Below are positions 31,064 to 46,925 of a stretch of 64,000 bases of DNA, piece after piece. The DNA is from Candidatus Kerfeldbacteria bacterium. Its GTDB lineage: Bacteria > Patescibacteriota > Patescibacteriia > UBA9570 > XYC2-FULL-38-9. Numbering within the stretch: the stretch's first letter is position 1; each line of letters starts with the position of its first letter. The stretch covers positions 386,555 to 450,554 of the forward strand of contig JACPGJ010000008.1 of NCBI GenBank assembly GCA_016182555.1. The letters are read 5' to 3'. Position numbers and translations under genes: made by a program. The notes beneath the pieces were generated by a model. That model had not been told where the DNA came from. It saw only the letters and a list, made by a program, of their open reading frames with translations, and did not search any database.

Positions 31064-31087
31064 ATTAAAATTCTATGACATAATAGC

Positions 31088-31855: not shown

Positions 31856-31866
31856 CAGTCTACTTT

Positions 31867-32589
31867 TTAGGCATGATGATTGTGATGCTCACAATGTTTG
31901 TTATGCTGACCTTTCTCTGTACGGATCACCTGTCCATCCTCAAACCAAATCACTGTTTTTGCAATTTCTTGTAAACGCATATCATGACTGACAATAACCA
32001 CTGAACGATTTTCTGTACAGGCTATACTACAGAGCAATTTCATCACTTCATGACCAGATGTTGAATCGAGGTTTGCTGTTGGTTCATCTGCTAAAATGAG
32101 CGTTGGATTATTGACCAGTGCCCGAGCAATAGATACACGCTGTTTTTCACCACCTGAGAGATCACGTGGAAGATTATGTAAACGACCTCCTAAGCCAAGT
32201 TTTTGTAATGCTCCTGTAGCAATCATCATGGCCTCCTTTTTACTCTTTCCTGCGGCAATCAGTGGAACGGCGGTATTTTCTTGGGCAGTGAGTGAAGCAA
32301 GTAAGTTAAACGATTGAAAGATAAAACCGAGTTCTTTTAATCGTAATTGCGCTAATTCCTGTTCATGTAAATTGCCTAACACCTTTCCATGAATTTTAAC
32401 TTTGCCTTTTGATGCTTTGAGTAATGCACCAATCATAGTAATAAGTGTAGTTTTGCCAGAACCACTGGGACCCATAATGAGCATGATATCTCCTTTTTTT
32501 ACGTTCAAAGATACATCATTCACTGCGGTGACTTGTGTATTTCCAGAACCGTATATTTTGGATAAATGTTCTATTTCTGCAACAAACAT
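31867..32589 (-). CDS. ABC transporter ATP-binding protein (MacB/LolD-like) with His-rich C-terminal tail
   Basis: Walker A GPSGSGKTT. ABC signature LSGGEKQRVSIARAL. Walker B ILADEPT. C-terminal HNKHCEHHNHHA. Start set at MFVAEIEHL, just after the upstream permease stop. Confidence 0.8.
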   Translation of the reverse strand: MFVAEIEHLSKIYGSGNTQVTAVNDVSLNVKKGDIMLIMGPSGSGKTTLITMIGALLKASKGKVKIHGKVLGNLHEQELAQLRLKELGFIFQSFNLLASLTAQENTAVPLIAAGKSKKEAMMIATGALQKLGLGGRLHNLPRDLSGGEKQRVSIARALVNNPTLILADEPTANLDSTSGHEVMKLLCSIACTENRSVVIVSHDMRLQEIAKTVIWFEDGQVIRTEKGQHNKHCEHHNHHA

Positions 32590-32602
32590 ATAGATCAAGG
32601 AA

Positions 32603-33715
32603 TTAATTTTTAAATACCTCTGCTGGATCAATGGACGCCAAACGACGAACCGGGATATAGGTTGCAATAAGCGCCATTCCAATAGTAGCGCCGAACACCC
32701 ACACAATATCGATCAGTCTAAACTCAGTCATAAAACCTGCCACAAAATAGCGTGATAATCGAGCAACAGGATATGCAAGAATTAATCCAACAACATACCC
32801 AATGATTCCTGAAACAAGGGATTGAAACATGACAATGGCGTAGAGTTGTCGGTGAGTAACACCAATTGCTTTGAGCACGCCATATTCACGTGATTTTTCT
32901 ACAGTCGCCGAATAAATCGTAACACCGATGACCGCACTTCCGATAATGAACCCGATAATGACTAATACGTAAATAATAGGTAAGAAGCTATCTTTGATCA
33001 CTTGACGAGATGTATCAACAAACTCTTGCTTTGTTAGAACTTTGACACCTGGAATATCATTGATAATGGTATTTTTAATTTTTTCCTGATCTGCTTGCGG
33101 TGCAACTTGAATAACATAAAAGTTGACTTTGTCGCCTAATTGAAATAATTCCTTTGCCTCATTGAGTGTGACAAAGGCATATTGAAAAACCATCATGTTT
33201 CCACCACTTGAGATACCTCCTATCTTCAGCTTGCGTTCAGCAATCTGTATTTCATCACCAATGTTAAGATGCTGTTTTTTTGCAAACACCTCATCAATAA
33301 TGATTTCTCCATCTTTAAGGTCTTCCCATCGTCCATCTTCCATTGTTTTGGGTTTTCCAAAACCGGTTGCGGGATCCACTGCAACAATAAATAAAGACGT
33401 GTCTTCTCCATTCAATTTCAGTAACGTTTGACGGCCAAGGTATGGGTGAACCGTATTTACTCCATCGATCTGTTTCAGTTGGTCTGATAAATTATTGGGT
33501 AGAAATGATAATGCGTGGAACATATCTCCTACTCCATCCTGTTCGACCCATAAATCAGCTGGGATACTCTTGGGATACGCCCCCATGGATTCATTCCATC
33601 CTTCGTATAATCCATTGAGTAAAATAATAAGCACTACAGCAAAAGCAACGCCTCCTATACTCATGAAGAGTTTTGTGCGCTCTTGAAGTAAATTTTTTAA
33701 AGCGATAAATAACAT
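32603..33715 (-). CDS. ABC transporter permease, FtsX/MacB-type
   Basis: N-terminal TM, large periplasmic loop, C-terminal FtsX-like 3-TM bundle (AIGVTHRQLYAIVMFQSLVSGIIG). Confidence 0.75.
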   Translation of the reverse strand: MLFIALKNLLQERTKLFMSIGGVAFAVVLIILLNGLYEGWNESMGAYPKSIPADLWVEQDGVGDMFHALSFLPNNLSDQLKQIDGVNTVHPYLGRQTLLKLNGEDTSLFIVAVDPATGFGKPKTMEDGRWEDLKDGEIIIDEVFAKKQHLNIGDEIQIAERKLKIGGISSGGNMMVFQYAFVTLNEAKELFQLGDKVNFYVIQVAPQADQEKIKNTIINDIPGVKVLTKQEFVDTSRQVIKDSFLPIIYVLVIIGFIIGSAVIGVTIYSATVEKSREYGVLKAIGVTHRQLYAIVMFQSLVSGIIGYVVGLILAYPVARLSRYFVAGFMTEFRLIDIVWVFGATIGMALIATYIPVRRLASIDPAEVFKN

Positions 33716-33728
33716 AAAAAATAGTGTA

Positions 33729-35804
33729 TTAAATTAATTGATGCTCTACTCGTTTTAACAACACTGCATTCGTGGCCACAATAATAGAGGAGCCAGACAT
33801 TAACAACGCTGAAATTTCGGGACGTAAGTACCAACCAAACGTGGTGTAGAATACACCAGCTGCTACGGGAATGGCTAATATATTATAAATCGCTGCCCAA
33901 AACAGATTTTGTTTCATTTTTCTTACTGTCGCTTTACTTAATTGAATCGCTCGAACAATATCAAAGGGGTCTGATTTCATAAGCACTACACTAGCCGTTT
34001 CTATGGCTACATCGGTACCAGCGCCAATCGCAATGCCAATATCGGCTTGAGCTAATGCGGGCGCATCATTCACGCCATCACCCACCATTGCTACAAATTT
34101 ACCTTCATGTTGTAGTTGTTTCACATGATCGGCTTTTTTAGCTGGTAAGACATTGGCAAAAATTCGTTGAATACCAAGTTTCTTACCCACAGCTTCCGCT
34201 ACCGCCTGATGATCGCCTGTAATCATAGCAGGTTCAATCCCTAGCTCTTGTAAAGCAATAATGGCTTGCTTGGCGGTGGATTTAATAGTATCCGCTGCGG
34301 CAATAATGCCAGCACACTTGTCATTAACCGCTACAATGATTACTGTTTTACCTTCTTGCCCTAACTGTTGAATTGATTCTTGGATACTCATAGTATCAAT
34401 CTTCTGCTGTCTGAATAAATCTTCTTTGCCTACTAAAATAGTTTTACCTGCGATAGTTGCTTTTAAACCATAGCCAGTAATGGATTCAAAGTGTTCTACA
34501 GTATCCTTTAAACTAATCTTACGTTGTTGTGCTTCAGTCACCACAGCTTTCGCTAAAGGATGATTTGAGCCAGCCTCAACTACTGCTGCGTATTCGAGTA
34601 CTTGCGTTTCAGAAAATGCGTTCACCGCTATTACATCCGTCACTTTAGGTTTACCCTCTGTGAGGGTACCTGTTTTATCTAGCACAATAGCTGTTATTTT
34701 AGAAACATTTTCAAGCGTGGCAGCATCTTTAATTAAGATATTATGTTTTGCACCAATCCCTGTGCCAACCGCTACTGCAGTAGGCGTGGCTAAACCCAAG
34801 GCATCCGGACAGGCAATGACCACAGCTGAAATGGCAAAGGTAAGCGCTGTAATAAAGTTCACTTCACCAAATACAAACCAACCCACAAATGTAATGACAC
34901 CCGAGCCAATAGCTAGAATCACTAGCCAGGCAGCGGCTTTGTCGGCAATGCGTTGCCCAGGGGCTTTGGAATTTTGAGCGGTTTCAACTAACTTAATGAT
35001 TTGAGCCAGTACAGTTTCTGAACCTACTTGGGCAGCGGTAAATTTTAATACCCCCGTTTGATTCACTGAACCACCAACGACTTGATCGCCTTTTTGTTTG
35101 GTGACGGGAATAGATTCACCAGTGACTAATGATTCATCGACCGCAGATTCACCTTCAATTACTGCACCATCAACAGGAATTTTATCGCCAGGTTTTACTA
35201 GAACAATATCGTTATGCTGAATGTCTTTACTATCCACCTGTAACTCTTTACCGTCTCGAATTACGATCGCTTGTGGTGGTATTAAATCAAACAACGCTCG
35301 TAATGCATCCGACGTTCCTCGCCTGGACCTCATCTCCATCCAGTGGCCAAACAACACGAATGTCACTAATAACGCTGCTGCTTCATAAAAGCTCTCCCCA
35401 CCAACCGTAAACGTAAGTAATACACTAAATAGATATGATGCTAACACACCCGTCGCAATGAGCACCGACATGTCTAATTTGCGAGCTTTGAGCGCATAAT
35501 AGGTACCGGTAATAAAAATAGACCCTGCCCAGAACACCACCGGTGTCGTTAAGATAAATAATATCCAGTTCACAGGTATCGGTGCAGGTAACACAATCTT
35601 CAGCACATTCATACCAACAGGTGAATACAAAAAGATGGGAATCGATAAAATAAAAGAAATTAAAAATCGTCGTCGCATATCGGCTTCCATCTGTTTGGCC
35701 ATGCGCGGGTCGGTCATGGCTGCAGCATGATCGTGATGACTCATGTGCTGCATGGAATTATCTGTGTGTTTCGCTGTATGTTCCAAGTGTTGATGATCCT
35801 CCAT
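33729..35804 (-). CDS. P1B-type heavy-metal ATPase with His/Met-rich N-terminus and atypical CPD transmembrane motif
   Basis: [12 protein letters not shown] (CPx variant), [18 protein letters not shown]-terminal [30 protein letters not shown] metal-binding-like stretch. No HMA domain. Confidence 0.85.
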
Positions 35805-35969
35805 ATATATTACTGATTTATCATAACATATTTACATGCAAAAAACTTCATTCAGTGCATTTGATTGTGATCACGAGCATTTGAATGATCCTTATTTTCG
35901 GCATGATGTCCGCCATGCATAAACAGGTGAAAAAATCCGATTTTTGCTTGTTTTTTCATAGGTGTGCTA

Positions 35970-36248
35970 TTATTTTTTCTTTGATAGTTTATACACATTC
36001 ATGATCTCTCCTGTTGCTTTAGCAATATTTCCACTCTTCATCTGCTGCGCAACACATCCTGAAAGATGATTTTCTAAAATAAGATCTTCCACGGAAGAAA
36101 GCGCCTGTTTAACCGCTGCTGATTGAGTCAATATATCAATACAATATGTTCCTTCTTCAAGCATGCGTTGTAATGCACGCACTTGTCCTTCAACTATTTT
36201 TAGGCGACGAATCCCTTTGGTTTTATTGTCTTTCTTCATATGTGTCAT
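35970..36248 (-). CDS. csoR: CsoR/RcnR-family metal-sensing transcriptional repressor
   Basis: DUF156 fold with metal ligands (YCIDILTQ ... ENHLSGC). Confidence 0.75.
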   Translation of the reverse strand: MTHMKKDNKTKGIRRLKIVEGQVRALQRMLEEGTYCIDILTQSAAVKQALSSVEDLILENHLSGCVAQQMKSGNIAKATGEIMNVYKLSKKK

Positions 36249-36267
36249 TATACCCCTCTAGGGTATA
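36249..36267. promoter_or_regulatory. Candidate CsoR operator TATACCC-N5-GGGTATA between csoR and the divergent Met-rich gene
   Basis: 7-bp perfect inverted arms. Same ATACCC-N5-GGGTAT architecture recurs at 42981-42997, and both resemble the B. subtilis CsoR site TACCC...GGGTA. Confidence 0.45.
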
Positions 36268-36377
36268 TAGATCAAATTATTGGAAAATTATTGTATAAAA
36301 TATTTTAACCTATTGCTATTCTGTTTTTTATGGACTATACTTTGTACATAATCAATAAAATTATTAAGGAGGAATTT

Positions 36378-36704
36378 ATGGACAACAAAATTTTAACAAC
36401 AGTAGTAATAACACTTATTGTTGCTGGACTTGGTGGGTTTTATATCGGTAGAGCAAACCAACCATTCTCAAATTCATATATGCAGGGTTCTGCTTCAATG
36501 ATGAAAGAAAACGGAACAACAATGACGCAAATGGGACAAATGATGATGGGCGGAGGAAAAATGATGAAAGAAAAGGGCACACAGTACAATGACACTGACA
36601 TGATGCAACAAGGAAAAGAATGGGAAACAAAAGGACAAATGATGAATGATAAAGGTACAGAAATGATGGGTCGAGGCAACGGCATGATGGACATGATGAA
36701 ATAA
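36378..36704 (+). CDS. Methionine-rich small secreted/membrane-anchored protein (putative Cu(I)-binding MxxM protein)
   Basis: RBS aaggagg, N-terminal TM, then many MxxM / MMxxGxxMM motifs (QMGQMMMGGGKMMKEKG...GRGNGMMDMMK). Followed by terminator. Confidence 0.5.
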   Translation: MDNKILTTVVITLIVAGLGGFYIGRANQPFSNSYMQGSASMMKENGTTMTQMGQMMMGGGKMMKEKGTQYNDTDMMQQGKEWETKGQMMNDKGTEMMGRGNGMMDMMK

Positions 36705-36724
36705 CAAACGTATCTAAATAAAAA

Positions 36725-36757
36725 TACTCCCCTGAAATTATTGGGGAGTATTTTTTT
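36725..36757 (+). terminator. Rho-independent terminator after the Met-rich gene
   Basis: Stem tactcccc / ggggagta with loop tgaaattatt, then T7. Confidence 0.55.
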
Positions 36758-36772
36758 GTATAACAGGTATAT

Positions 36773-39700
36773 CTATTCTATACGGAACTCAGAACCAACC
36801 AAGTGCATTTGATCAAGAACAGTTCCAGTTTGCGGAAGCACGCCTGCAATAATCACATTATTCCCAAAGAAGTTATCCATACGATCACCTTCCTTCTGAA
36901 ATAGATTCTCCTTGCGCATAATTTCTGCCTCTTGCGAACCAATATACATCGATTGATAATTCTTTCCACCAATTGCTACTGTCGAAAAACTCTCTTTTCC
37001 AATTATGATATCCTTGTACACTGCTGGAATTGAATTTCCTTTTATTGGATAGAATAGTTTTAATTCATCACCTACTCGAACAGTCAATACCGGGTTTCCT
37101 TGGATCTGATCAAACGTTGGTATGGTAAGTATATGATAATCATCAAGAATACTGCCGGTGGGATTGAGTATTCCATTGATAGTGATTGTTGGAATTCCAA
37201 AAAAATTCGCTGTTGAATCCCCGGGTTTCTGAAGCAACTGTTTCTGCTTCATGATACTGGCTTCTGTTGCTCCCACAATCATAGCATTCGCATCAATTGA
37301 GGCATTTCCTTCTACCGATCCCACTGCCGGATCAAATTGATTCACTCCCAAGAAGAGTTTCACTTCATCATCAATATAGGCTATTTTTGTTTTTCCAGAA
37401 GAAATAAAGTTTGTTACTTCAGCTGTACTCTGGGTGGGCATCGTCTGTTCTGACTGTTCTTTTTCCATGCCACTACTCAAACGAGCAAATTGGAAAAATA
37501 CTCCTGTAAAGAGAATAACTAATATCACCGGGGCAATAAACGAAAGGTAATTTCGTTTTTGTGGACGGAATAAACGAAGCAGTAATGCATTCCCTACGAC
37601 TGAGATAGAACTGAATGCCATAGCAAGTCCAGCAAGTTCGGGTTTTAAGACTAAACCAAATGACACAAAGATACGTGCGGCAATTGGTATACCAATAATG
37701 TTGTAAAAAAGTGCAAAGAATAAATTTTGTTTAATTTTATTCATTGTCTCCTTTGCGAGTTGGAATGCAGTCACCACATCACGCAAATCACTCTTCATCA
37801 AAATAATACCACCCGTTTCCATGGCCACATCTGTTCCGGAACCCATTGCAATACCCAAATTCGCTTGAGCGAGAGCAGGTGCATCATTGACCCCGTCCCC
37901 TACCATAGCAACTCTGTTTCCGGCATCTTGTAATTTTTTCACTTCACTGGCTTTATGCTCTGGTAATACTTCAGCGAGTACATTCGTAATGCCTACCTGC
38001 TGTGCAATAGCGTGTGCGGTGCGTTGATTGTCACCTGTAATCATATACACATCCATGCCCATGGTTTGCAATTTTTCAATTGCTTGCTTGGATGTGTCTT
38101 TCACTGTATCCGCAACCGCAACAATACCCACAACTTCCTTTTCTGTTGCCAAAATCATCACCGTTTTCCCTTGTTCTTCTAAACGCACCAGTTTTCGATT
38201 TATTTTATCAATGGATAAACCAACTTTTTCACCAATCAATTTTCTGTTACCGAAGAAATAGACCATCGTATCAACAGTTCCTTGTACACCATGTCCTGGA
38301 ATGGCTTGAAATTGTTGAACATCAGCAAAAGATACAGACTCTTCTTGAGCATAGGAATATATTGCTTCAGCCAGTGGATGTTCAGAGAGTTTCTCTAGGC
38401 TTGCAGCAATTGCCAACACATCATCCTCATCAGTCACACCAAGACTCACCACATCAGTTACTTCTGGCTTCCCTTTTGTGATCGTTCCCGTTTTATCAAA
38501 TATCACCGTCGTAATCTTTTGGGCTGCTTGAAGTGGTTCACCTCCTTTAATCAAGATGCCCTGTTCAGCACCTTTCCCTGTCCCAACCATAATGGCTGTT
38601 GGCGTGGCGAGTCCCAACGCACACGGACAAGCAATTACAATCACCGCGGTAAATGCCATTAACGCAAATGTAATGCTAGCGCCCAGAACGAGATACCATA
38701 CAATGAACGTGAGAATAGCAATACCAATAACAATGGGAACAAACTTCGCAGAAATTCTGTCAGCAAAATTTTGAATCGGCGCTTTTGATCCTTGAGCTTC
38801 TTCAATCAGGCGAATAATTTGAGCGAGCGATGTTTCGCTGCCCACTCGAGTTGCTTCAAATTCGAAGCTCCCTTGTTTATTCATTGTTCCACCAATAACG
38901 GTATCGCCCCCATTTTTTTCGACCGGCAAACTCTCCCCGGTAATCATTGATTCATCTACAGCAGAAGAACCACTCACAATTTTTCCATCAACAGGAATTG
39001 TTTCTCCTGGACGCACAATCACCCTGTCGCCATGCAATACATCCTCTACAGGAATATCTTCTGTGATGCCGCCACGAATAACACGAGCCGTTTTTGCTTG
39101 CAAGCCCATCAGTTTTTTAATGGCATCAGATGTCTTTCCTTTGGTGCGTGATTCTAGCCATTTCCCCAACACCACAAACGTAATCAAGAACGCCGCTGTT
39201 TCAAAATACAATTCACCAATTTTTTCACCACCAACACCAATGAGTGAACGATTATTCACTACGTACAGAATGTAATTTACCAAACTGTAGAAAAACGCTG
39301 TGGATGTTCCAATGGCAATGAGACTATCCATATTAAATGTCTTCATGCGCAAGGAAGACCACATGCCTTTATAAAATCCATAGCCAATCACAAATTGCAC
39401 AGGAATGGTGAGGATAAGTGACACAATGCCAATGTATGGTAAGAGTGTTTGCGCACCGGGCATCCACTTGAAAAAATCGAGCAGCATGAAATAGAACATT
39501 GGAAGACTCAGTACTGCGCTAGCGATAAATTTTTTCCAATATAATCGAATTTCCTTTTGACGTTTTCGTGTTTCAAATTCTGTGTCTTTTACATCAACTT
39601 CTTGCGCTTTGTATCCCGCTTTTTCAACGGCTGCAATCAGTTGTGGAATTTGCACTACACTCGGGTTATACGTCACCAACGCTTTTTCTGCAGCAAAATT

Positions 39701-40408
39701 GGCACTTGCCTGCTGTACCCCATTTACTTTTTTAAGCGAGCGCTCAATAATATTGGCGCACGATGCGCAATGCATACCAGATAACGATAAATTCACCCGC
39801 TTCTGTGTTTCGGTTATTGAATCTATCGGTGTTTTTGCTGAAGCTACGGAAGAAACGGTCGTATGATTCTGTGTATTCGTTGGCGTAATCAATGTTTGCT
39901 GTTCTGGAGAAGAACTAAACAACGTTGATACATGCAGCGATTTCATAATTTGTTCAATCAATCCAACAGCAACGGGAGTTTGATCTTGTCCGTCAAATGT
40001 TGTTTTCTTTTGTGTTTTTACATTTCCATCAAAATATGGTTTCCCATCAGCATCAGAAAATATTTTTCCCTCAGCCTCTATGGTTGTTTCCCACGTTGCT
40101 TTGAATGGTTGCCCATTTTGTTGTTCTGTTTCACTTTTTGGAACGATTGGTGCGTGTTGTTCAGGTTTTTGTACAGATTCAATATTCTCTTCTGATGTCA
40201 GAGTGGCAGTATAGCCAGCACGTGTAATCGCATCAAGAACATCTTGAGTACTTTGTTGAGTTGTATCGAGCATTGCGGTGTATATTCCAGTACGATGGTC
40301 AACAACAATTTCACTCAACCCTGATAACTCCTCACATTCTGCGTGAATGATTTTTTCGCATGCATCGCATGTCATGCCTTGTACTTGTATAGTAATTTTT
40401 TTCTTCAT
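36773..40408 (-). CDS. copA: Copper-translocating P1B-ATPase CopA-like with two N-terminal HMA domains and a ~300-aa C-terminal extracytoplasmic tandem-repeat extension
   Basis: Two GMTCDAC/GMHCASC HMA domains. [27 protein letters not shown]. After the last TM there is a duplicated ~100-aa module ([42 protein letters not shown] / [41 protein letters not shown]). Confidence 0.85.
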
Positions 40409-40423
40409 AAGTGTATGTATTTA

Positions 40424-40627
40424 CTACTCAACAATGGTGTATTCTGTATCTTGAAATACTGCTCGAATTTCATCAAGAGAAATTTCTCTATCAGTTTGAA
40501 TTTCCGTTTTCCCATCCAACCCAGAAATATTCACCTCTTGAACTCCGGCAATTTTTTTGAGTTTCATAGTGCTTAAACGAATACATGCATCACAGTGAAA
40601 GCCCTGTATTATAAATGTAATATTCAT
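40424..40627 (-). CDS. copZ: HMA-domain copper chaperone (CopZ-like)
   Basis: MNITFIIQGFHCDACIRLSTMKLKKIAGVQEVNI ferredoxin-like HMA fold with CxxC. Confidence 0.6.
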   Translation of the reverse strand: MNITFIIQGFHCDACIRLSTMKLKKIAGVQEVNISGLDGKTEIQTDREISLDEIRAVFQDTEYTIVE

Positions 40628-40644
40628 ATAGATATAAATTATTT

Positions 40645-42486
40645 TTATAGTACGGTAATTGTTCCTCGTGGCACTCCCATTGCACATGTAATTTCATATG
40701 TTCCTGGTTGTGTTGGAGTGAAATTCATTGCAACTGTTTTGCCTTTCTCCAATAACTCTGGTGTATTGTACAATGTAGGAATCATAATAGTGCTCATACA
40801 ACCAGAACCATTTTCTTTTGCTTCAATTTCAAATCGTACTGGTTTTCCAGATTGAACAGTAAATGTATTTGGCTGAATATCTGTATTATATGTATACGCT
40901 GTTTTAATTAACTGTATATCAGCAGAATCTTGTTGCTGAGTAACTCCTTGGATTTTTTCTGCGCTCACGTTACTGCCTGCACCACAACTCCCTGATCCAC
41001 CACCGCATCCACATCCTCCACTTTTTTGAGCATTCCCACAGGAACCTCCCTGCTGCCCAGACGCAATAGCACTATTACTATTTGAATCAACTTGATTTGA
41101 AGTGGGTTGAACATTATTTGTTTGGCTGGCAGGATTAACTACTTCAAATGACCCTCGATACATTCCCATTGAACAAGAAAACGCGATTTTCCCTGTTTCG
41201 GTTGGAGTAAATTCAATAATATTTTCGCCAGCAACAAGCCTCTTTTGTACATTTAATGCTGATGACACTAGACTACTTGCACAAGAATATGAATCCTGTG
41301 CATCAATGATCCATCGAACAGGAATGCCTTTTTGAATAGTAAACTTATTTGGTGAATACCCACGAGCGGTTTCTGTCATACGCACAATTTGCACTCCGTT
41401 TTCCATTGTGACATTTGGGTCGGCTGCAGTGGTTTCATTGGAGTCTGCAAGACCAGCGTTGAATCCAGTGAGATGATATCCATTAGAAATATTAAACAAG
41501 GCAAATAAGATTACGACAACCCCTGCAAACTTGAAGAACCGTTGTGCAAACACTCCTTTGACTGCAGAAGAAATTCCCCCAATACCTAGTAATCCCGGAG
41601 CTGTACCAAGAGCAAATACCCCCATAATGAGAGCACCTTTTGTAAAGCTGCCACTACTCATTGCATATAATTGCATCGCTTGCGTAAATCCACATGGCAA
41701 GAAAAAGGTGAGCGCGCCAAGAACGGCTGCACCTCGGTGGTTATATTCTTTTTCATGCCGCTCGATTCCCAAAAACTTACTAATGCTTGATGGAAGTGTA
41801 ATGCTCACATCGTCTAATTTTGGAAATATGCCAACAAGTTTTGCTCCAAGAAGCAACATGACTACGCCAATAACTAGAGTTAATATACCAAGTGTAATTG
41901 TTGATAGTTGCAATACTGAACCAACTGCTCCCAAAAGACCACCCAGCACTACATACGACGCAATACGTCCAAAATTAAAGAAAAGATGTGGTCGAAATTT
42001 TTGCATGACCGTTGCTTCCGGATGCCTTTCTGCGTGCCGTGCTGACAAACCAAGAATTAATCCACCAACCAAAGCCATACATGTTGAAAATCCTGCGGTT
42101 AGTCCAATAAGTAATACAATGGGAATACTACTTGGGTTTGATCCTGAAGATATATTGATATTCAATAGTCCTGTTTCTTTTAATAGCAGATATGCGCCAA
42201 AAAGAAATAAGAATGCAATACCAAGGTCTTTATAGTCACGTGGATTTTTACTGAGCCACGTTTTCTTATCTGGGTTGCCAATCGAATATCCAGCTTCCTG
42301 AATTGCTTGTTCAACCTCACTCATTTTTGGCTTCTGCTGATCATAATAAATATGTGCTTTGTGGTTTTTATAACTCACTTCTGCTTTTGATACTTCAGGA
42401 ATTTCTGATAATTTATCACCAATGAGAATTTCACATGATCGACAATGCATTCCACGAATAGGAACTGTAAGACAGTGTTTTTTCAT
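40645..42486 (-). CDS. Fusion protein: N-terminal HMA domain + DsbD/CcdA-like polytopic membrane domain + two C-terminal cupredoxin-like (Cupredoxin_1) domains joined by a Gly/Cys-rich linker
   Basis: MHCRSCE HMA. About 8 TMs. Duplicated FTIQKGIPVRW...SCSMGMYRGSFEVV and FTVQSGKPVRF...TCAMGVPRGTITV. Linker GGSCGNAQKSGGCGCGGGSGSCG. Confidence 0.6.
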   Translation of the reverse strand: MKKHCLTVPIRGMHCRSCEILIGDKLSEIPEVSKAEVSYKNHKAHIYYDQQKPKMSEVEQAIQEAGYSIGNPDKKTWLSKNPRDYKDLGIAFLFLFGAYLLLKETGLLNINISSGSNPSSIPIVLLIGLTAGFSTCMALVGGLILGLSARHAERHPEATVMQKFRPHLFFNFGRIASYVVLGGLLGAVGSVLQLSTITLGILTLVIGVVMLLLGAKLVGIFPKLDDVSITLPSSISKFLGIERHEKEYNHRGAAVLGALTFFLPCGFTQAMQLYAMSSGSFTKGALIMGVFALGTAPGLLGIGGISSAVKGVFAQRFFKFAGVVVILFALFNISNGYHLTGFNAGLADSNETTAADPNVTMENGVQIVRMTETARGYSPNKFTIQKGIPVRWIIDAQDSYSCASSLVSSALNVQKRLVAGENIIEFTPTETGKIAFSCSMGMYRGSFEVVNPASQTNNVQPTSNQVDSNSNSAIASGQQGGSCGNAQKSGGCGCGGGSGSCGAGSNVSAEKIQGVTQQQDSADIQLIKTAYTYNTDIQPNTFTVQSGKPVRFEIEAKENGSGCMSTIMIPTLYNTPELLEKGKTVAMNFTPTQPGTYEITCAMGVPRGTITVL

Positions 42487-42550
42487 ATAGTATAGTTACT
42501 TGTTTAGAATAGGAAACACAGACACGAGCGTGTCTTAACTGTATACTATT

Positions 42551-42931
42551 CTATTCCCGCAAAATGACTGTATTAAACAAATAATGTGGAAAATACCAGA
42601 ATTGCCGTTGCCACTGAAATAGCGGTCTTACCTGAGGAATGATGAACCAATACATCACGGTCACTAATAACGCAAAAACAAATGGTAGTGAAAAACTGAC
42701 AATATTTACTGGTGAAGCGGCACTCAAACAATGTGAAACACATTCAACAGATTTTTGAATAGGTAATTGACAATCTGCAGATTGAACTTGACATGACTCC
42801 ACGGCAAGGTGTTCATTGCTATGTATAGGTATATGATTCACATTTGAAGAATCATGTATGACAAAAAAAGCACCGCCCCACATATACGCAGCGAATGATA
42901 CTCCAATAATGATACTGATCCAATGCTTCAT
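42551..42931 (-). CDS. Small Cys/His-rich membrane protein, first gene of the operator-controlled copper operon
   Basis: Two TMs flank CQVQSADCQ...ECVSHC. Operator-like palindrome immediately upstream. Confidence 0.35.
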   Translation of the reverse strand: MKHWISIIIGVSFAAYMWGGAFFVIHDSSNVNHIPIHSNEHLAVESCQVQSADCQLPIQKSVECVSHCLSAASPVNIVSFSLPFVFALLVTVMYWFIIPQVRPLFQWQRQFWYFPHYLFNTVILRE

Positions 42932-42980
42932 AGATTGTGTATAACCTTATTGTTCATCAACTTTCGTTACCAATGATATA

Positions 42981-42997
42981 ATACCCCTATAGGGTAT
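42981..42997. promoter_or_regulatory. Candidate CsoR operator ATACCC-N5-GGGTAT upstream of the 42931-36773 operon
   Basis: Near-perfect palindrome ATACCCCTATAGGGTAT, same architecture as 36249-36267. Confidence 0.45.
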
Positions 42998-43022
42998 ATG
43001 TGTCAATCAATAGTTATATTTT

Positions 43023-43280
43023 TTACTTTATATCTACATTCACTCCAAAATGTTTTTTGTATACCGCTTTACGCTTTTTAAACATTTGCTCAAAGAAACC
43101 AATCCATTGATCATGATAATCATACACCATACACGGTTGCTGCGATCCACGTTGCAAGCGACCAATGTATTGTTTTAATTTGATCGCTGATGAAAATGGG
43201 TACACTAAAAACAGCACATCAAAGTGAACAATATCTGTACCCTCACCTACTAATTGACCAGTTGCGATCACAATTTCAGG
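43023..43280 (-). pseudogene. Helicase C-terminal domain remnant (superfamily 2 motif V/VI fragment)
   Basis: IVIATGQLVGEGTDIVHFDVLFLVYP...YIGRLQRG matches helicase motifs V-VI. Only ~85 aa remain. The N-terminal part of the ORF is antisense to the IS fragment. Confidence 0.45.
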
Positions 43281-43519
43281 CTTTCTGGGGACGTTCGGAA
43301 AATGCTGTGAAAACCCAAATTTGGTTTGCTGTGGCAACATATGCGCTCGTCGCTATCATTCGAAAAAAACTTGAATTGAGTAAAAGCATGCATGAAATTC
43401 TACAAATTTTAAGTATCTCTCTCTTCGATAAAATGTCCGTAAAACAGTTCCTTTCTGAATATGAAAACAGACTCGAAAACAATACATCAAAAAAACAACT
43501 TACTTTACAGGATTTTTAA
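43262..43519 (+). mobile_element. IS4-family-like transposase C-terminal remnant
   Basis: ENAVKTQIWFAVATYALVAIIRKKLEL resembles the conserved C-terminal segment of IS4/DDE_Tnp_1 transposases. The DDE core is absent and the fragment abuts the helicase remnant. Confidence 0.4.
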
Positions 43520-43555
43520 CCGGCCAGTAGTGTGCGACTATTCGTGAATAACAAG

Positions 43556-43596
43556 AAAAGCTCTACAGACTGTACGCAGGTTTGTAGAGCTTTTTC
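43556..43596. terminator. Bidirectional intrinsic terminator
   Basis: GCTCTACA ... TGTAGAGC stem with 15-nt loop, flanked by A-run and T-run. Confidence 0.45.
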
Positions 43597-43598
43597 TT

Positions 43599-44146
43599 TT
43601 ATAAAAAATTCTTTGCTGAGAATGTAACTAGTTTGCTAATCGCAATATCTGGATGCTCCTGCATGTAGTGTTGAATAAGAAGAAATCCAAGCGTGTATCC
43701 TGTCCAACGTGGAATATTGCGTTTTTTTGAACCGACGATGTGTTTCCTGTCAGGGTAAAGACAACATAATCTGCTAAGCCCTCGCTCACAATGTTGTCTG
43801 CCAACGTTTTGCCCATTACTCCTGCTTCCCAGCGTTTCACATGACACAATTCATGCGCAATGGTTTGACTAAGTACCGTATGCAAATTCTTCTTTACATC
43901 TTTGTGATCAGGATCAATCGTTATCTGCACAAAATGAGCTGAAGGAGAATATCCACCAATGCCTCCCATATTTTTCAGTGGCTCTGGATATAATGCTTCC
44001 ATCACAAGAATATCTACATTATCGATAGCCAACAACTTTTGTACTTTTTGTGATGTGTGTCGAATAATCCGTTTTGCGTCATTTTGTACTGCATTCAAAC
44101 GCCCAGAACTATTTAATACGTGAATTGAAATACTCATACTATTCAC
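43599..44146 (-). pseudogene. Frameshifted paralog of the DUF2268-like HExxH protein (4284-4958)
   Basis: Frame A (43628-44146) carries the HELCH motif and VSEGLADYV. Frame B (43599-43847) carries RNIPRWTGYTLGFLLIQHYMQEHPDIAISKLVTFSAKNFL, collinear with the intact copy. Requires one frameshift near SEGLADYV. Confidence 0.5.
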
Positions 44147-44269
44147 TGGTGTCCGGTTAATTTTTTTGAGAGGTAAGAAATTATTTGCAGGTTAGCCAAT
44201 AATTGGTATTTTTGATATTTTTCTCAAATATTGGCTAATTGTAGAATACAATACGATCTGAATGGAAAA

Positions 44270-44491
44270 TTAACGGGACACGAGTGATTTTGGTATAAAC
44301 TTTTTTTGCCATGTTTCATCATTTATTGATGAATAGCCATTTTTATTTAAATAAGGTAAGAAAATACTCTTCCATTTATCCGCAGTCATAGGATTATCGC
44401 TAGTAGATAATCCCATTTTAACTATATGTATACAATCAACATTCTGCATATCTGCTATATGTTGCATATAAGAATCCAATTTTTTATACAA
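44270..44491 (-). CDS. Hypothetical protein (73 aa)
   Basis: ORF only. Possibly the downstream half of a gene split at the poly-G tract. Confidence 0.25.
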   Translation of the reverse strand: MYKKLDSYMQHIADMQNVDCIHIVKMGLSTSDNPMTADKWKSIFLPYLNKNGYSSINDETWQKKFIPKSLVSR

Positions 44492-44595
44492 CTCTAAACC
44501 AATGCCCTTTGGTAATGTTTCTTGAGAATCAAACTTTTGAATTTGTGTATAAATTTTAAATGGTTCTTCTACCTGTCTAACATAGATAGTTAATT

Positions 44596-44895
44596 TTATG
44601 TACCCCCCCCTGATTGATTACCTAAAATAAATTCCTCATTTATATCAATCTTTTTTCTCATACCACGATTTTCAAATTCTGTAACTATTCTTCTACAATC
44701 CAATGATATACTTTGTTCACCTAAACACATATTTTCTTTTGCTTGAAATGAGGTAACATCTCTATTCCCATAAACTGGATCGGCTATTTCAGCTATCCAT
44801 TGCAAATCAGCTAATTGAAATTCTGAAAAATTCACACCTTCAATTGGACGTATAGCCAAGTCTGGGTTTTTAAAAAAATAATTTTTTTCAGTCAT
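44596..44895 (-). CDS. Hypothetical protein (99 aa) ending in a G8 homopolymer-encoded GGGT
   Basis: ORF ends two codons after an 8-nt homopolymeric tract (C8 on + at 44603-44610). Confidence 0.3.
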   Translation of the reverse strand: MTEKNYFFKNPDLAIRPIEGVNFSEFQLADLQWIAEIADPVYGNRDVTSFQAKENMCLGEQSISLDCRRIVTEFENRGMRKKIDINEEFILGNQSGGGT

Positions 44896-45112
44896 AAAAT
44901 TACTATTAAGCTATAATACTATAGCAATTTTCAAATATAATGCCAAATGCAACACATAAACCAATGTTTTGCAGATTACAAAAAAAAATTCAACCATACT
45001 TCATTTATTATTCCCGCCAACAGAACGAGTTTTAAATTTCGTTTGAAAGACAGTATTTTTTGATGTACTTAATGCACATATTTTTCAATTTGATACATCT
45101 ACATTAAACATA

Positions 45113-46878: not shown

Positions 46879-46925
46879 ACTAATATAATGCTGTATATTT
46901 TAGGTTGGCGGGTCACCTCTAGAAC

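What the first reader, a model, noticed from the sequence alone, without database searches (positions are those of the whole stretch)
33729..42997. Operator-bracketed copper/heavy-metal island with unusual domain fusions
Two CsoR-type palindromes (ATACCC-N5-GGGTAT at 36249-36267 and 42981-42997) head two minus-strand operons. Operon 1 runs from a Cys/His membrane protein through an HMA-DsbD-like-2x cupredoxin fusion and CopZ to a CopA with two HMA domains. That CopA carries a novel duplicated ~100-aa extracytoplasmic C-terminal module with one His per repeat. Operon 2 runs csoR, then a His-rich P1B-ATPase with a CPD instead of CPC/CPH motif, then possibly the MacB-like ABC pair. A Met-rich MxxM protein is divergent from csoR. 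The CPD ATPase and the CopA C-terminal repeat are not standard architectures.
Basis: partly seen in the sequence, partly recalled or inferred. Interest (0 to 1): 0.55.

Follow-up and report, generated by a model that had tools for sequence, protein, structure and literature searches.

The report
Copper pump with outside accessory domain
This is a copper-export gene island in an uncultured Patescibacteria bacterium, switched by a known type of copper-sensing repressor. Its main copper pump carries a real, previously undescribed outward-facing domain that, in archaea and bacteria alike, is always fused to or encoded next to such pumps.

Summary
Two ATACCC-N5-GGGTAT palindromes (36250-36266, 42981-42997) are the only ones in the window. 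Each fills the 17-nt spacer of one of the two best sigma-70-like promoters in the region, and both match the published type-2 CsoR operator. They head two minus-strand operons:
- Operon 1: Cys/His membrane protein, HMA-DsbD_2-2xCupredoxin_1, CopZ, CopA.
- Operon 2: csoR, a possible His-rich peptide, a CPD P1B-ATPase, a MacB-like permease, an ABC ATPase.

The CopA C-terminal extension is not a mis-joined ORF. It is a ninth TM helix plus a duplicated ectodomain (AF2 pLDDT 92) with no Pfam or NCBIfam model. Its family has 186 representatives at 50% clustering. In 30 of 30 informative loci it is either fused to CopA (12) or encoded directly beside CopA (18). It is weakly MacB-periplasmic-domain-like and conserves E-A-x-M-M...T-x-T-x2-D-x2-H in each repeat.

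I infer an outer-face partner that takes Cu(I) from CopA and passes it to co-encoded anchored CupA-like cupredoxins. This function is untested.

The CPD ATPase is not rare. All 120 best homologues carry CPD, and a CPD subtype is already in the literature. Its link to the MacB-like ABC pair recurs in other genomes.

The parts
42978..43006 (-). Promoter of operon 1: TTGACA (43006-43001), 17-nt spacer, TATTAT (42983-42978)
   Evidence: Best sigma-70-like match (11/12) in 31000-43600. The sequence was read.
42981..42997 (.). CsoR operator O1, ATACCCCTATAGGGTAT. It fills the promoter spacer, and its last 3 nt are the first 3 nt of the -10 box.
   Evidence: It fits the type-2 CsoR consensus ATATACCCCTNAGGGGTATAT and TAC-N9-GTA (PMC3902906).
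42551..42931 (-). 126-aa two-TM protein with a Cys/His-rich loop (4 Cys, 6 His); first gene of operon 1
   Evidence: Translation; no Pfam or NCBIfam hit. Positional analogues with C...C...CVS[HN]CLSA occur between csoR and the DsbD_2 gene in L028, L029 and L025.
40645..42486 (-). 613-aa protein: cytoplasmic HMA, 1+6 TM helices (DsbD_2 core with Cys136 and Cys265), then outside two Cupredoxin_1 domains joined by a Cys/Gly-rich linker (aa ~480-505)
   Evidence: Pfam E-values: DsbD_2 6e-35, Cupredoxin_1 4e-22, HMA 5e-12. C...CSMGM and the GCGCGG motif are shared with neighbours of CopA in other genomes.
40424..40627 (-). CopZ-like chaperone, 67 aa from Met21 of the 87-aa ORF; motif GFHCDAC
   Evidence: Pfam HMA E=3e-5, 24.7 bits against a cutoff of 24.8. 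NCBIfam CopZ models match below their cutoffs.
36773..40408 (-). CopA, 1211 aa: HMA, a conserved ~130-aa insert, HMA, a P1B-1 core (CPC 594-596, DKTGT 638, YN(x)4P, MAFSS), TM9 and the ectodomain
   Evidence: The NCBI record MBI2411400.1 starts at Met212, inside the second HMA, but includes the whole tail.
37469..37555 (-). Ninth TM helix of CopA (aa 952-980), preceded by RPQKRN on the cytoplasmic side
   Evidence: Hydropathy. The AF2 model has a helix at model residues 3-32.
36776..37468 (-). Extracytoplasmic duplicated module of CopA (aa 981-1211). Repeat cores are aa 1043-1095 (37124-37282) and aa 1154-1205 (36794-36949).
   Evidence: Internal repeat E=1e-14. AF2 with 58 sequences: pLDDT 92.2, pTM 0.81. 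Family of 186 representatives. Conservation profile. Always fused to or adjacent to CopA.
36730..36760 (.). Hairpin plus T-run between the converging ends of the Met-rich gene and copA; likely a bidirectional terminator
   Evidence: stem 36730-36746; sequence read.
36378..36704 (+). 108-aa membrane-anchored Met-rich protein (MxxM and MM runs), divergent from csoR
   Evidence: AAGGAGG 6 nt upstream of the ATG at 36378. No family hit. The operator does not overlap its predicted promoter at 36313-36341.
36247..36275 (-). Promoter of operon 2: TTGATC, 17-nt spacer, TATAAT. It is probably leaderless, because the -10 box ends 8 nt before the ATG at 36239.
   Evidence: 10/12; sequence read.
36250..36266 (.). 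CsoR operator O2, ATACCCCTCTAGGGTAT, placed in its promoter exactly as O1 is
35970..36239 (-). csoR (89 aa from the second ATG; the ORF extends to 36248); Cu(I) ligand set C36/H61/C65 in ORF numbering
   Evidence: Pfam Trns_repr_metal 2e-25. The best NCBIfam match is RicR, below its cutoff. Ligand residues were read.
35852..35959 (-). Possible 35-aa His-rich peptide MKKQAKIGFFHLFMHGGHHAENKDHSNARDHNQMH, between csoR and the ATPase
   Evidence: ORF list. No evidence of expression or conservation; not followed up.
33729..35804 (-). 691-aa P1B ATPase with a His/Met-rich N-terminus, CPD in TM4, YNILAIP and MSGSS
   Evidence: All 120 best homologues have CPD. The closest solved structures are Cu(I) pumps, E=1e-163, against 1e-82 for Cd/Zn pumps.
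32603..33715 (-). MacB-like (type VII ABC) permease; starts 13 nt after the ATPase stop
   Evidence: Pfam MacB_PCD + FtsX. Homologues lie next to CPD ATPases in L038, L039, L040 and L033.
31867..32589 (-). ABC ATPase (240 aa from Met40 of the ORF) with the C-terminal tail KGQHNKHCEHHNHHA
   Evidence: Pfam ABC_tran 1e-32. A G-x-H-x3-C-x2-H tail is shared by the partners in L038, L039 and L040.

Best explanation
The region is a copper-efflux island of a Candidatus Kerfeldbacteria (Patescibacteria) genome, controlled by a CsoR repressor.

Shown:
- Two near-identical type-2 CsoR operators each fill the -35/-10 spacer of a strong promoter and overlap the -10 box.
- The csoR product has the C-H-C Cu(I) ligand set.

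Inferred regulation: apo-CsoR blocks both promoters, and Cu(I) releases it.

Inferred action of operon 1: CopZ feeds a CPC-type CopA that pumps Cu(I) out.

The CopA tail. It is a genuine ninth TM helix plus a two-repeat ectodomain. This belongs to an unannotated family that occurs either as this C-terminal fusion or as a single-pass membrane protein encoded directly beside copA. The rule holds in DPANN archaea, methanogens, Patescibacteria and some proteobacteria and Acidobacteriota. The domain is probably a distant relative of the MacB/LolC periplasmic core domain. It has gained an E-A-x-M-M...T-x-T-x2-D-x2-H signature in each repeat.

Most likely mechanism (inferred, not shown):
1. The ectodomain sits over the outer mouth of CopA and receives or guides the released Cu(I) through Met/His sites.
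2. It hands the metal to membrane-anchored CupA-like cupredoxin domains (C...CxMxM plus a GCGCGG tail) that are co-encoded in nearly every such locus.
3. The Cys ligands of those domains are kept reduced by the fused CcdA-like DsbD_2 core.
4. Exported copper is thus held outside rather than leaking back.

Operon 2 adds a second pump of the conserved CPD subtype, most likely for Cu(I). It also encodes a MacB-type ABC transporter with a His/Cys tail, which is genetically linked to CPD pumps in other genomes.
For: Operators and promoters:
- Two sites only, 0.03 expected.
- They lie inside the two best promoter matches of the 12.6-kb region: TTGACA-17-TATTAT and TTGATC-17-TATAAT.
- They fit the experimentally defined consensus ATATACCCCTNAGGGGTATAT and TAC-N9-GTA (PMC3902906).
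- The same arrangement precedes csoR in Doudnabacteria locus L029, and the same motif lies at the 5' end of the csoR ORF in L028.
- CsoR: Pfam 2e-25; C36/H61/C65 read.

The module is real:
- One ORF.
- P0001 joins the ATPase C-terminus and the module in frame.
- AF2 pLDDT 92.2.

The family:
- 186 representatives, about 70 of them stand-alone with one N-terminal TM helix and about 15 fused to CPC ATPases.
- No Pfam or NCBIfam model; sources call them 'hypothetical protein'.

Linkage:
- 18 stand-alone genes lie on the same strand directly next to a CopA-type ATPase. The gap is 0-120 nt; in L006 a small cupredoxin gene and in L012 a CopZ gene lies between them.
- 12 are fusions and 2 loci are uninformative.
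- Cupredoxin_1 partners occur in 27 of 28 loci with adequate flanks. They share the GC...C[ST]MGM and GCGCGG motifs.

Topology: positive residues precede TM9, and the 613-aa protein has 7 TM segments that obey the positive-inside rule.

Conservation: M 0.95-0.97, D 0.99-1.00, H 0.88-0.91, E 0.94-0.95 in both repeats.

MacB-like signal:
- The top ~33 Foldseek PDB hits are all type VII ABC periplasmic domains.
- 10 of 58 members hit Pfam MacB_PCD, best E=7e-6.
- hhalign P=0.004 against 0.26 for a reversed control.

Precedent: CopA passes Cu(I) to periplasmic CusF, whose site is one His and two Met (PMC7558416).

CPD pump and ABC pair.
Against: - No metal binding, partner contact or regulation has been measured.
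- I had no model coordinates, so I cannot say whether the conserved Met, His and Asp lie together or face the pump.
- The conserved Met sits in the helix that corresponds to the buried A..L helix of MacB-type domains, so it could be a core residue.
- His is replaced in about 10% of members.
- The MacB relationship is weak: Foldseek E >= 8.5e-3 and TM <= 0.35; hhalign probability 8-22%; no PDB hit by profile.
- There is no control for how often Cupredoxin_1 or DsbD_2 genes sit beside CopA genes that lack the module.
- One fused locus (L019) shows no cupredoxin gene in its flanks.
- The substrate of the CPD pump is inferred only from similarity and neighbours.
Confidence: 0.55

Rival explanations
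1. The module binds no metal. It acts as a structural accessory subunit or chaperone of CopA. It would resemble the beta subunit of Na,K-ATPase, KdpC or CDC50, or on the cytoplasmic side the mycobacterial PacL proteins. Its TM helix and ectodomain would be needed for folding, stability, membrane placement or docking of partner proteins.
For: - It is strictly fused to or adjacent to CopA.
- It has a single TM helix plus an ectodomain, like known accessory subunits (PMC10654040).
- PacL proteins show that P1B pumps can depend on small single-pass partners (PMC13460109).
- Most near-invariant residues are Gly, Phe, Pro or Asp, as expected for structural positions.
- MacB-type domains dock partners: the Foldseek hits include the LolC-LolA complex.
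Against: Met at 0.95-0.97 with almost no Leu/Ile exchange, together with His ~0.9 and Asp ~1.0 repeated in both halves, is unusual for purely structural positions. It resembles extracytoplasmic Cu(I) sites such as CusF. The two readings are not exclusive.
Confidence: 0.25
2. The module is a ligand-binding or enzymatic domain that acts on the cell envelope. The conserved Thr/Asp/His/Glu could form a catalytic or sugar/peptide-binding site. Its link to CopA would then reflect co-regulation or localisation rather than copper hand-off.
For: - T1084 (0.98), D1089 (0.99) and H1092 (0.91) lie in a loop, and the pattern is repeated in the second half.
- FtsX-type extracellular domains, which are relatives of MacB_PCD, control cell-wall hydrolases (from general knowledge, not tested here).
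Against: - All 30 informative loci are copper loci (CopA, CopZ, Cupredoxin_1, CsoR), and no envelope enzymes recur in them.
- Fusion to the pump itself in 12 loci argues for direct cooperation.
- No enzyme family appears in the Pfam or PDB searches.
Confidence: 0.08
3. The CPD ATPase of operon 2 exports a metal other than Cu(I), such as Cu(II), Zn(II), Cd(II) or Co(II). The harder Asp ligand would replace the second Cys, and the MacB-type ABC transporter would handle the same ion.
For: - Asp is a hard ligand.
- NCBI names this very protein 'cadmium-translocating'.
- The N-terminus is rich in His rather than CxxC.
- The ABC partner carries His/Cys tails or a YHS domain.
- CPH pumps were long thought to carry Cu(II) (PMC5552934).
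Against: - TM5 YN(x)4P and TM6 MSGSS are the Cu(I)-pump signatures listed for P1B-1.
- The closest solved structures are Cu(I) pumps by about 80 orders of magnitude in E-value over the Zn/Cd pumps.
- The gene follows csoR behind a CsoR operator, and relatives sit in CsoR/CopA clusters.
- The CPH pumps were re-assigned to Cu(I) (PMC10654040).
Confidence: 0.25
4. The CopA tail is an artefact: a separate downstream ORF joined by a missed stop codon, a frameshift or an assembly error.
For: Its length is unusual (1211 aa against about 750-840), and the tail has no Pfam hit.
Against: - The ORF is uninterrupted.
- The identical protein is on record from another assembly, and the NCBI record includes the tail.
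- Eleven further loci from different phyla carry the same in-frame fusion, as do about 15 cluster representatives.
- TM9 gives the topology needed to place the tail outside.
Confidence: 0.01

Closest known systems
CsoR-controlled copZA operons (Streptomyces lividans, Bacillus subtilis; type-2 CsoR operators)
   Same: - A Trns_repr_metal repressor with C-H-C ligands.
- A 17-nt ATACCCC-N-GGGTAT pseudopalindrome with TAC-N9-GTA.
- Autoregulated csoR plus a CopZ/CopA operon.
   Different: - Here the operator sits exactly in the promoter spacer of two operons.
- csoR is co-transcribed with a CPD pump and a MacB-type ABC transporter rather than with copZA.
- The host is a Patescibacteria genome.
E. 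coli CopA to CusF hand-off (with CusCBA)
   Same: A P1B-1 pump gives Cu(I) to an extracytoplasmic acceptor that uses His and Met ligands (PMC7558416). The module conserves Met-Met and His in each repeat.
   Different: - CusF is a soluble OB-fold protein that docks transiently.
- The module has an unrelated alpha/beta two-repeat fold and is tethered by a TM helix or fused to the pump.
- No metal binding has been shown for the module.
Periplasmic core domain of type VII ABC transporters (MacB, LolC/E, YbbP, HrtB; Pfam MacB_PCD)
   Same: - A TM helix followed by an alpha/beta ectodomain.
- The top Foldseek hits are all of this class.
- 10 of 58 members hit the Pfam model.
- The motif [IV]xGxxxAxxxxLxxGDxxxxxxxxxxVxGI is shared with the window's own MacB-like permease.
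   Different: - There is no FtsX three-helix domain and no cognate ABC ATPase; the partner is a P-type ATPase.
- All scores are weak (TM <= 0.35; hhalign probability <= 22%).
- The E-A-x-M-M and T-x-T-x2-D-x2-H signatures are specific to the module.
PacL proteins (DUF1490) of Mycobacterium tuberculosis P1B 'effluxosomes'
   Same: Small single-pass membrane proteins encoded in an operon with P1B ATPases and needed by them (PMC13460109).
   Different: - The PacL soluble part is cytoplasmic, with EA repeats and disorder, and binds the pump's N-terminal metal-binding domain.
- The module is a folded, extracytoplasmic domain attached after the last TM helix.
- No DUF1490 hit was found among 58 members.
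Extracytoplasmic accessory subunits of other P-type ATPases (Na,K-ATPase beta, KdpC, CDC50)
   Same: A single (or double) TM helix plus an ectodomain associated with the pump (PMC10654040).
   Different: That review describes such subunits for P1A, P2C and P4 pumps, not for copper pumps. It also states that prokaryotic P1B sequences lack terminal domains of the kind seen in eukaryotes. No sequence or fold relation is known.
CupA, the membrane-anchored cupredoxin Cu(I) chaperone of Streptococcus pneumoniae
   Same: A Cupredoxin_1-type domain with a bis-thiolate site and a Met-rich site (PMC7558416). The window protein and its relatives keep GC...C[ST]MGM.
   Different: - CupA works on the cytoplasmic side, upstream of CopA.
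- Here the topology prediction puts the cupredoxins outside.
- They carry a GCGCGG tail and are often fused to a DsbD_2 membrane core and an HMA domain.
CopB / P1B-3 (CPH) pumps and the CPD subtype noted in Rhizobiales
   Same: A His-rich N-terminus, CPx with a non-Cys third residue, YN(x)4P, and MSGSS exactly as in the Rhizobiales CPD group VIc (PMC5552934).
   Different: - The Rhizobiales CPD proteins were described as poor in His.
- This clade is large in Patescibacteria and is often linked to a MacB-type ABC pair.
- None has been characterised.

Membership tests
CsoR (Cu(I)-sensing branch of the CsoR/RcnR family) | Trns_repr_metal (PF02583) fold | tested here: met
   E=2e-25, 89.4 bits against a cutoff of 22.8.
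CsoR (Cu(I)-sensing branch of the CsoR/RcnR family) | Cys-His-Cys Cu(I) ligand set | tested here: met
   C36 (YCID), H61 and C65 (ENHLSGC) were read from the translation. The C-H-C motif is described in PMC10141476.
CsoR (Cu(I)-sensing branch of the CsoR/RcnR family) | G-tract pseudopalindromic operator with TAC-N9-GTA in the promoters of target genes | tested here: met
   Both sites read TAC-CCCTNTAGG-GTA. They match 15 of the 16 specified positions of the core (positions 3-19) of ATATACCCCTNAGGGGTATAT and lie inside the promoters.
CsoR (Cu(I)-sensing branch of the CsoR/RcnR family) | Cu(I)-dependent release from DNA | not testable with these tools
   Needs EMSA or ITC with and without Cu(I), or expression data.
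P1B-1 Cu(I) ATPase (CopA): the 1211-aa protein | TM4 CPC, TM5 YN(x)4P, TM6 M(x)2SS, DKTGT, N-terminal HMA domains | tested here: met
   CPC 594, DKTGT 638, YNIIGIP, MAFSS and two HMA domains. TIGR01511 scores 629.9 bits against a cutoff of 397.
P1B-1 Cu(I) ATPase (CopA): the 1211-aa protein | Eight TM helices with a cytoplasmic C-terminus | tested here: not met
   There is a ninth TM helix (aa 952-980) and a 231-aa ectodomain. The protein is a member by its core, but a variant in architecture.
P1B-3 / CopB: the 691-aa protein | TM4 CPH and TM6 MSxST | tested here: not met
   The motifs are CPD and MSGSS; the definitions are from PMC5552934.
P1B-3 / CopB: the 691-aa protein | His-rich N-terminus without CxxC | tested here: met
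   The first 30 residues contain 9 His and no Cys.
CPD subtype of Cu-ATPases (Rhizobiales group VIc) | CPD + YN(x)4P + MSGSS | tested here: met
   All three motifs are present. CPD is conserved in the 120 best homologues. CPD and YN(x)4P also occur in L033, L035 and L037-L040, where TM6 reads MS[AG]SS.
MacB_PCD (periplasmic core domain of type VII ABC transporters): the CopA module | Match to PF12704 at the family threshold | tested here: inconclusive
   The window sequence gives no hit even at E<=10. Of 58 relatives, 10 hit it, best E=7e-6. hhalign against a profile of 114 MacB-like permeases gives P=0.004 against 0.26 for a reversed control.
MacB_PCD (periplasmic core domain of type VII ABC transporters): the CopA module | Fold similarity to solved MacB/LolC/LolE periplasmic domains | tested here: inconclusive
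   The top ~33 Foldseek hits are all of this class, with probabilities up to 0.99. However, E >= 8.5e-3, TM is 0.24-0.35 and rmsd is 4-12 A.
MacB_PCD (periplasmic core domain of type VII ABC transporters): the CopA module | Followed by the FtsX three-helix domain and paired with an ABC ATPase | tested here: not met
   The module ends the protein. Stand-alone members have one TM helix only.
PacL / DUF1490 | DUF1490 domain with a cytoplasmic EA-repeat region | tested here: not met
   None of the 58 members hit DUF1490. The predicted topology is the opposite.
CupA-like Cupredoxin_1 Cu(I) domain: C-terminal domains of the 613-aa protein | PF13473 match and a Cys...Cys-x-Met-x-Met ligand pattern | tested here: met
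   Cupredoxin_1 E=4e-22, two stretches. Domain 1 has SYSC...FSCSMGM. Domain 2 has GSGC...TCAMGV, which lacks the last Met. The CxMxM residue pattern of CupA is recalled from memory; the bis-thiolate and Met-rich sites are cited from PMC7558416.
DsbD/CcdA-type thiol-disulfide transporter: membrane core of the 613-aa protein | DsbD_2 fold with one Cys in each of two TM helices | tested here: met
   PF13386 E=6e-35. Cys136 (STCMA) and Cys265 (LPCGF) lie in predicted TM helices. Electron transfer itself cannot be tested here.

The most novel reading that the evidence does not exclude
P1B copper pumps in many archaea and Patescibacteria have a dedicated extracytoplasmic accessory domain or subunit, evolved from the MacB-type periplasmic domain. 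It would be driven or positioned by the conformational cycle of the P-type ATPase. It would capture Cu(I) at the exit through Met/His sites and pass it to anchored CupA-like cupredoxins, which a DsbD_2 core keeps reduced. Together these would form a complete outer-face copper relay in cells that lack a Cus-type system.
Probability: 0.3. Interest if true: 0.8.

Novelty: new variant of a known kind. Interest (0 to 1): 0.62.

Why it matters
How Cu(I) leaves a P1B pump, and who receives it outside the membrane, is known only for E. coli CopA and CusF. The reviews read here describe no extracytoplasmic accessory subunit or domain for any copper pump.

The family found here has no Pfam or NCBIfam model and is labelled 'hypothetical protein' by its sources. 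It is nevertheless tied to CopA in every informative locus, across both prokaryotic domains.

That gives a concrete, testable candidate for the missing outer-face partner in organisms with a single membrane. It is present in a cultured methanogen, Methanosphaerula subterraneus.

It also suggests that MacB-type mechanotransmission domains were recruited by a different class of ATPase.

Smaller practical points:
- The NCBI start of this CopA is wrong.
- The CPD pumps, and the MacB-like ABC pairs with H-x3-C-x2-H tails, form an uncharacterised conserved pairing.

Tried and rejected
- Single-sequence AF2 of the tail gave pLDDT 37.8 and was useless.
- The word-seeded homologue search found only 2 relatives. 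The full HMMER profile search was needed.
A 10-sequence subset worked.
- A profile search of PDB sequences with the family found nothing relevant.
- hhalign of the family against the single window permease found only the TM helix.
- hhalign against a 114-sequence permease profile stayed weak, so the MacB relationship is left as probable, not established.
- The 126-aa protein, the Met-rich protein and the tail have no Pfam or NCBIfam match.
- phmmer with the 126-aa and Met-rich proteins found no relatives in 31 loci.
- I looked for repeats of the tRNA-Gln sequence to delimit a genomic island and found none.
- There is no second copy of the module in the window.
- A literature search for DsbD_2 with cupredoxin and copper found no paper.
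- A search for an accessory subunit of P1B pumps found only PacL and general reviews.
- I rejected the idea that the conserved His alone defines a metal site: it is replaced in about 10% of members, while Met and Asp are more conserved.

Full report
**Source.** The 691-aa ATPase is 100% identical to an NCBI protein from a Candidatus Kerfeldbacteria MAG, on a 598,550-bp contig. The window therefore comes from a Patescibacteria (CPR) genome. G+C is 34-42% between about 26 and 46 kb and 41-46% on either side.

**Operators and promoters.** ATACCC-N5-GGGTAT occurs twice in 64 kb at up to one mismatch, at 36250-36266 and 42981-42997. The chance expectation is 0.03.

A consensus scan of 31000-43600 ranks these two minus-strand sites among its best promoter matches:
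- 43006..42978, TTGACA-17-TATTAT, 11/12.
- 36275..36247, TTGATC-17-TATAAT, 10/12.

In both, the palindrome fills the spacer and its last TAT is the start of the -10 box.

The sites match the experimentally defined type-2 CsoR consensus of streptomycetes, ATATACCCCTNAGGGGTATAT, and the TAC-N9-GTA rule shown to be required for binding (PMC3902906).

In Doudnabacteria locus L029 the same motif lies in a TTGACA-17-TATACT spacer upstream of csoR. The same motif also lies at the 5' end of the csoR ORF in L028. Among 31 related loci these are the only two exact matches.

The csoR product hits Trns_repr_metal at 2e-25 and has C36/H61/C65.

The first ATG of the csoR ORF (36248) is part of the TATAAT box. 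The second ATG (36239) begins 8 nt after the box, so a leaderless 89-aa CsoR is likely. This is an inference.

**Operon 1 (42931 to 36773, minus strand).**
- A 126-aa two-TM protein with a Cys/His loop has no family hit.
- A 613-aa protein carries HMA, DsbD_2 and two Cupredoxin_1 stretches. It has seven hydrophobic segments whose loops obey the positive-inside rule. This puts HMA inside and the cupredoxins outside.
- A 67-aa CopZ follows (GFHCDAC; HMA 24.7 bits against a cutoff of 24.8).
- The 1211-aa CopA has two HMA domains, CPC, DKTGT, YNIIGIP and MAFSS.
- Gaps between the genes are 15-64 nt.
- A hairpin with a T-run follows the copA stop.

**The CopA tail.** After TM8 come RPQKRN, a hydrophobic helix (aa 952-980) and 231 residues with no Pfam or NCBIfam match. 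The two halves align at 43% over 53 residues, E=1e-14.

The tail is not a mis-join:
- The ORF is uninterrupted.
- The NCBI record MBI2411400.1 contains the tail. However, it starts at Met212, cutting the GMHCASC motif of the second HMA, which is a start-site error.
- A metagenome protein (P0001) reads from GDGINDAPAL through the last TM helices into the module.

**The module family.** A profile of three sequences, searched against 1.84 billion representatives, found 186 proteins at E<=0.001 and 84 at E<=1e-30.
- Most are 240-285 aa with one N-terminal TM helix.
- About 15 are C-terminal parts of CPC P1B ATPases of roughly 950-1125 aa.
- Where a name exists, the sources call them 'hypothetical protein'.
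- No NCBIfam model matches.

With a 58-sequence alignment AlphaFold2 gives pLDDT 92.2 and pTM 0.81. The model shows a TM helix, a linker and two similar beta-alpha-beta-rich units.

**Genomic linkage.** A scan of one genome per GTDB species returned 31 loci. I annotated them by phmmer with the window's proteins.
- In 18 loci the module is a separate gene on the same strand next to a CopA-type ATPase. It overlaps it or lies within about 120 nt. In L006 a small cupredoxin gene lies between them, and in L012 a CopZ gene does. These loci come from Methanosphaerula subterraneus (a complete genome), Methanoregulaceae, Methanosarcinales, Micrarchaeota, Woesearchaeota, Nanoarchaeota, Altiarchaeota, Acidobacteriota and two deltaproteobacterial MAGs.
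- In 12 loci it is fused to the CopA C-terminus. These are L001 plus Doudna-, Falkow-, Moranii- and Gracilibacteria, another Patescibacteria MAG, a Bdellovibrionales MAG, two 'Pseudomonadales' MAGs and one Gammaproteobacteria MAG.
- Two loci are cut by contig ends.
- So 30 of 30 informative loci link the module to CopA.
- A further CPR contig, L038, has the same 1209-aa fusion.

**Co-encoded cupredoxins.** In 27 of 28 loci with enough flank there is a Cupredoxin_1 gene, either small and anchored or fused to HMA-DsbD_2. An alignment shows the following shared features:
- An N-terminal anchor with a basic N-terminus.
- A conserved GC.
- A C[ST]MGM motif.
- A C-terminal GGSCG...GCGCGG tail.

In the window protein the same Cys/Gly motif is the linker between the two cupredoxins.

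CupA of S. pneumoniae is the characterised cupredoxin-type Cu(I) chaperone, with a bis-thiolate site and a Met-rich site (PMC7558416). CupA acts in the cytoplasm; these domains are predicted to lie outside.

**What the module resembles.**
- Foldseek against the PDB puts only periplasmic domains of type VII ABC transporters (LolE, YbbP, LolC, HrtB, MacB) in the first ~33 places, with probabilities up to 0.99. The scores are weak: E >= 8.5e-3, TM 0.24-0.35.
- Ten of 58 members hit Pfam MacB_PCD, best 7e-6. The next family is hit by 6 members.
- hhalign of 63 stand-alone members against 114 MacB-like permeases gives P=0.004 over the segment holding the shared [IV]xGxxxAxxxxLxxGD...VxGI motif. A reversed control gives 0.26.
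- Profile searches of PDB sequences found nothing.

I rate a distant MacB_PCD origin as probable, not shown.

**Conservation.** Over 140-170 members each repeat keeps G-x2-E-A-x-M-M, G-D, F-G and T-x-T-x2-D-x2-H.

| Residue type | Repeat 1 | Repeat 2 |
|---|---|---|
| Glu | E1049, 0.95 | E1160, 0.94 |
| Met | M1053, 0.97 | M1164, 0.95 |
| Thr | T1084, 0.98 | T1194, 0.93 |
| Asp | D1089, 0.99 | D1199, 1.00 |
| His | H1092, 0.91 | H1202, 0.88 |

The Met-Met and D-x2-H positions have no counterpart in the aligned MacB-like profile. They look like a gain specific to this family.

**Mechanism.**
- Shown: the topology signals, the fusion/adjacency rule, the co-occurrence with anchored Cys/Met cupredoxins, and the conserved Met/His/Asp/Glu pattern.
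- Inferred: the ectodomain works at the outer face of CopA.
- Precedent: CopA hands Cu(I) directly to periplasmic CusF, which binds it with one His and two Met (PMC7558416).
- Proposed relay: CopZ, then CopA, then the module, then the anchored cupredoxin and its Cys tail, with DsbD_2 keeping the outside thiols reduced.
- Main rival: a non-metal-binding structural subunit, like the beta, KdpC or CDC50 subunits of other P-type ATPases (PMC10654040) or the cytoplasmic PacL partners of mycobacterial P1B pumps (PMC13460109).

I could not inspect model coordinates, so the spatial arrangement of the conserved residues is unknown.

**Operon 2 (36239 to 31867, minus strand).** The gene order is csoR, a possible 35-aa His-rich ORF (not followed up), the 691-aa ATPase, a MacB_PCD+FtsX permease starting 13 nt later, and an ABC ATPase 13 nt after that.

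The ATPase has CPD aligned exactly with the CPC of CopA, plus YNILAIP and MSGSS.
- All 120 best homologues (70-74% identity, mostly Patescibacteria) have CPD.
- The same CPD/YN(x)4P/MSGSS combination was named a novel subtype in three Rhizobiales proteins (PMC5552934).
- Its nearest solved relatives are Cu(I) pumps, 1e-163 against 1e-82 for Cd/Zn pumps.
- CPH pumps have been re-assigned to Cu(I) (PMC10654040).
- Relatives lie in CsoR/CopA clusters.

The MacB-like pair belongs to the system.
- Homologues of the permease lie beside CPD pumps in L038, L039 and Arthrobacter oryzae (L040).
- One CPD pump (L033/L034) is preceded by a membrane-fusion protein, a YHS-bearing ABC ATPase and a MacB-type permease.
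- The ABC ATPases share a C-terminal G-x-H-x3-C-x2-H tail.

**Verdict.** The regulatory and pump parts are ordinary members of known kinds. The CPD pump is an uncharacterised but common and already noted subtype. The CopA ectodomain is the real finding. It is an unannotated, structurally confident family bound to copper pumps by fusion or adjacency in both prokaryotic domains. The reviews read here describe no extracytoplasmic accessory domain or subunit for copper pumps.

Noticed in passing
window 36773-40408 (aa 70-205 of CopA); L019, L021, L022, L028, L029: The ~1200-aa CopAs share a conserved ~70-aa segment between their two HMA domains (P-F/I-K...E..EAEG...ADGKPYF-E/D-GK...N.EF.VP.G...Y-L-E-Q-L-V-K). 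It has no Pfam hit and is a possible extra cytoplasmic domain.
   Followed up: partly
window 39775-40408: The NCBI protein MBI2411400.1 (1000 aa) starts at Met212, inside the GMHCASC motif of the second HMA domain. The full ORF is 1211 aa with two HMA domains, so the deposited annotation has a start-site error.
   Followed up: yes
window 35852-35959 (-): A 35-aa ORF rich in His (8 of 35), MKKQAKIGFFHLFMHGGHHAENKDHSNARDHNQMH, lies in the 165-bp gap between csoR and the CPD ATPase. It has no obvious Shine-Dalgarno sequence, and its conservation was not tested.
   Followed up: no
window 31867-32589 (-); L038 6110-6937; L039 6118-6837; L040 6104-6832: The ABC ATPases paired with this MacB-like permease subfamily end in a conserved G-x-H-x3-C-x2-H tail. 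The window's tail is extended to KGQHNKHCEHHNHHA. The L033 counterpart instead has an N-terminal YHS domain. These appendages suggest metal sensing or binding on the ATPase.
   Followed up: partly
L004 6803-7303, L009 3180-3764, L012 10324-10890, L030 2873-3463 and others; window 40645-42486 aa ~480-505: Anchored Cupredoxin_1 proteins next to CopA end in a conserved GGSCG...GCGCGG tail. In the window protein the same motif links the two cupredoxin domains.
   Followed up: partly
L035 7102-7755; L039 4028-4905; L040 4147-4981: ICMT-family methyltransferase genes, twice preceded by a small DUF2933 gene (L039, L040), recur next to the CPD pump or MacB-like pair in other genomes. They are absent from the window.
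   Followed up: no
window 43023-47010: Just upstream of operon 1 lie two overlapping gene fragments without family hits (43023-43340, 43190-43519) and a DUF2268 fragment. Beyond them are a resolvase-domain ORF of 213 aa (45113-45754) and tRNA-Gln (46936-47010, minus). G+C dips to 34-39% nearby. This may be a genomic island, but no repeat of the tRNA was found.
   Followed up: partly
L024 and L027 (Gracilibacteria): The CopA, DsbD_2-cupredoxin and module genes appear as strings of short ORFs under table 11. This fits the UGA-recoded genetic code reported for this lineage (from general knowledge). They were counted as fusions on the basis of order and frame only.
   Followed up: no
L019 ~400-440; L020 ~1540-1568; L026 ~2040-2065: Upstream of csoR in other loci there are different palindromes, for example TACCTATACC-A-TAGGTATAGGTA, TACCCTC-N-GAGGGTA and ATACCT-C6-TAGGTAT. 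This suggests lineage-specific variants of the CsoR operator.
   Followed up: no
L038 4848-4979: A 43-aa Met-rich membrane peptide (MMDYNMMGGAGGSSMMFF...) lies between the CopA-module gene and the MacB-like permease in another CPR genome. It recalls the window's divergent Met-rich protein (36378-36704).
   Followed up: no
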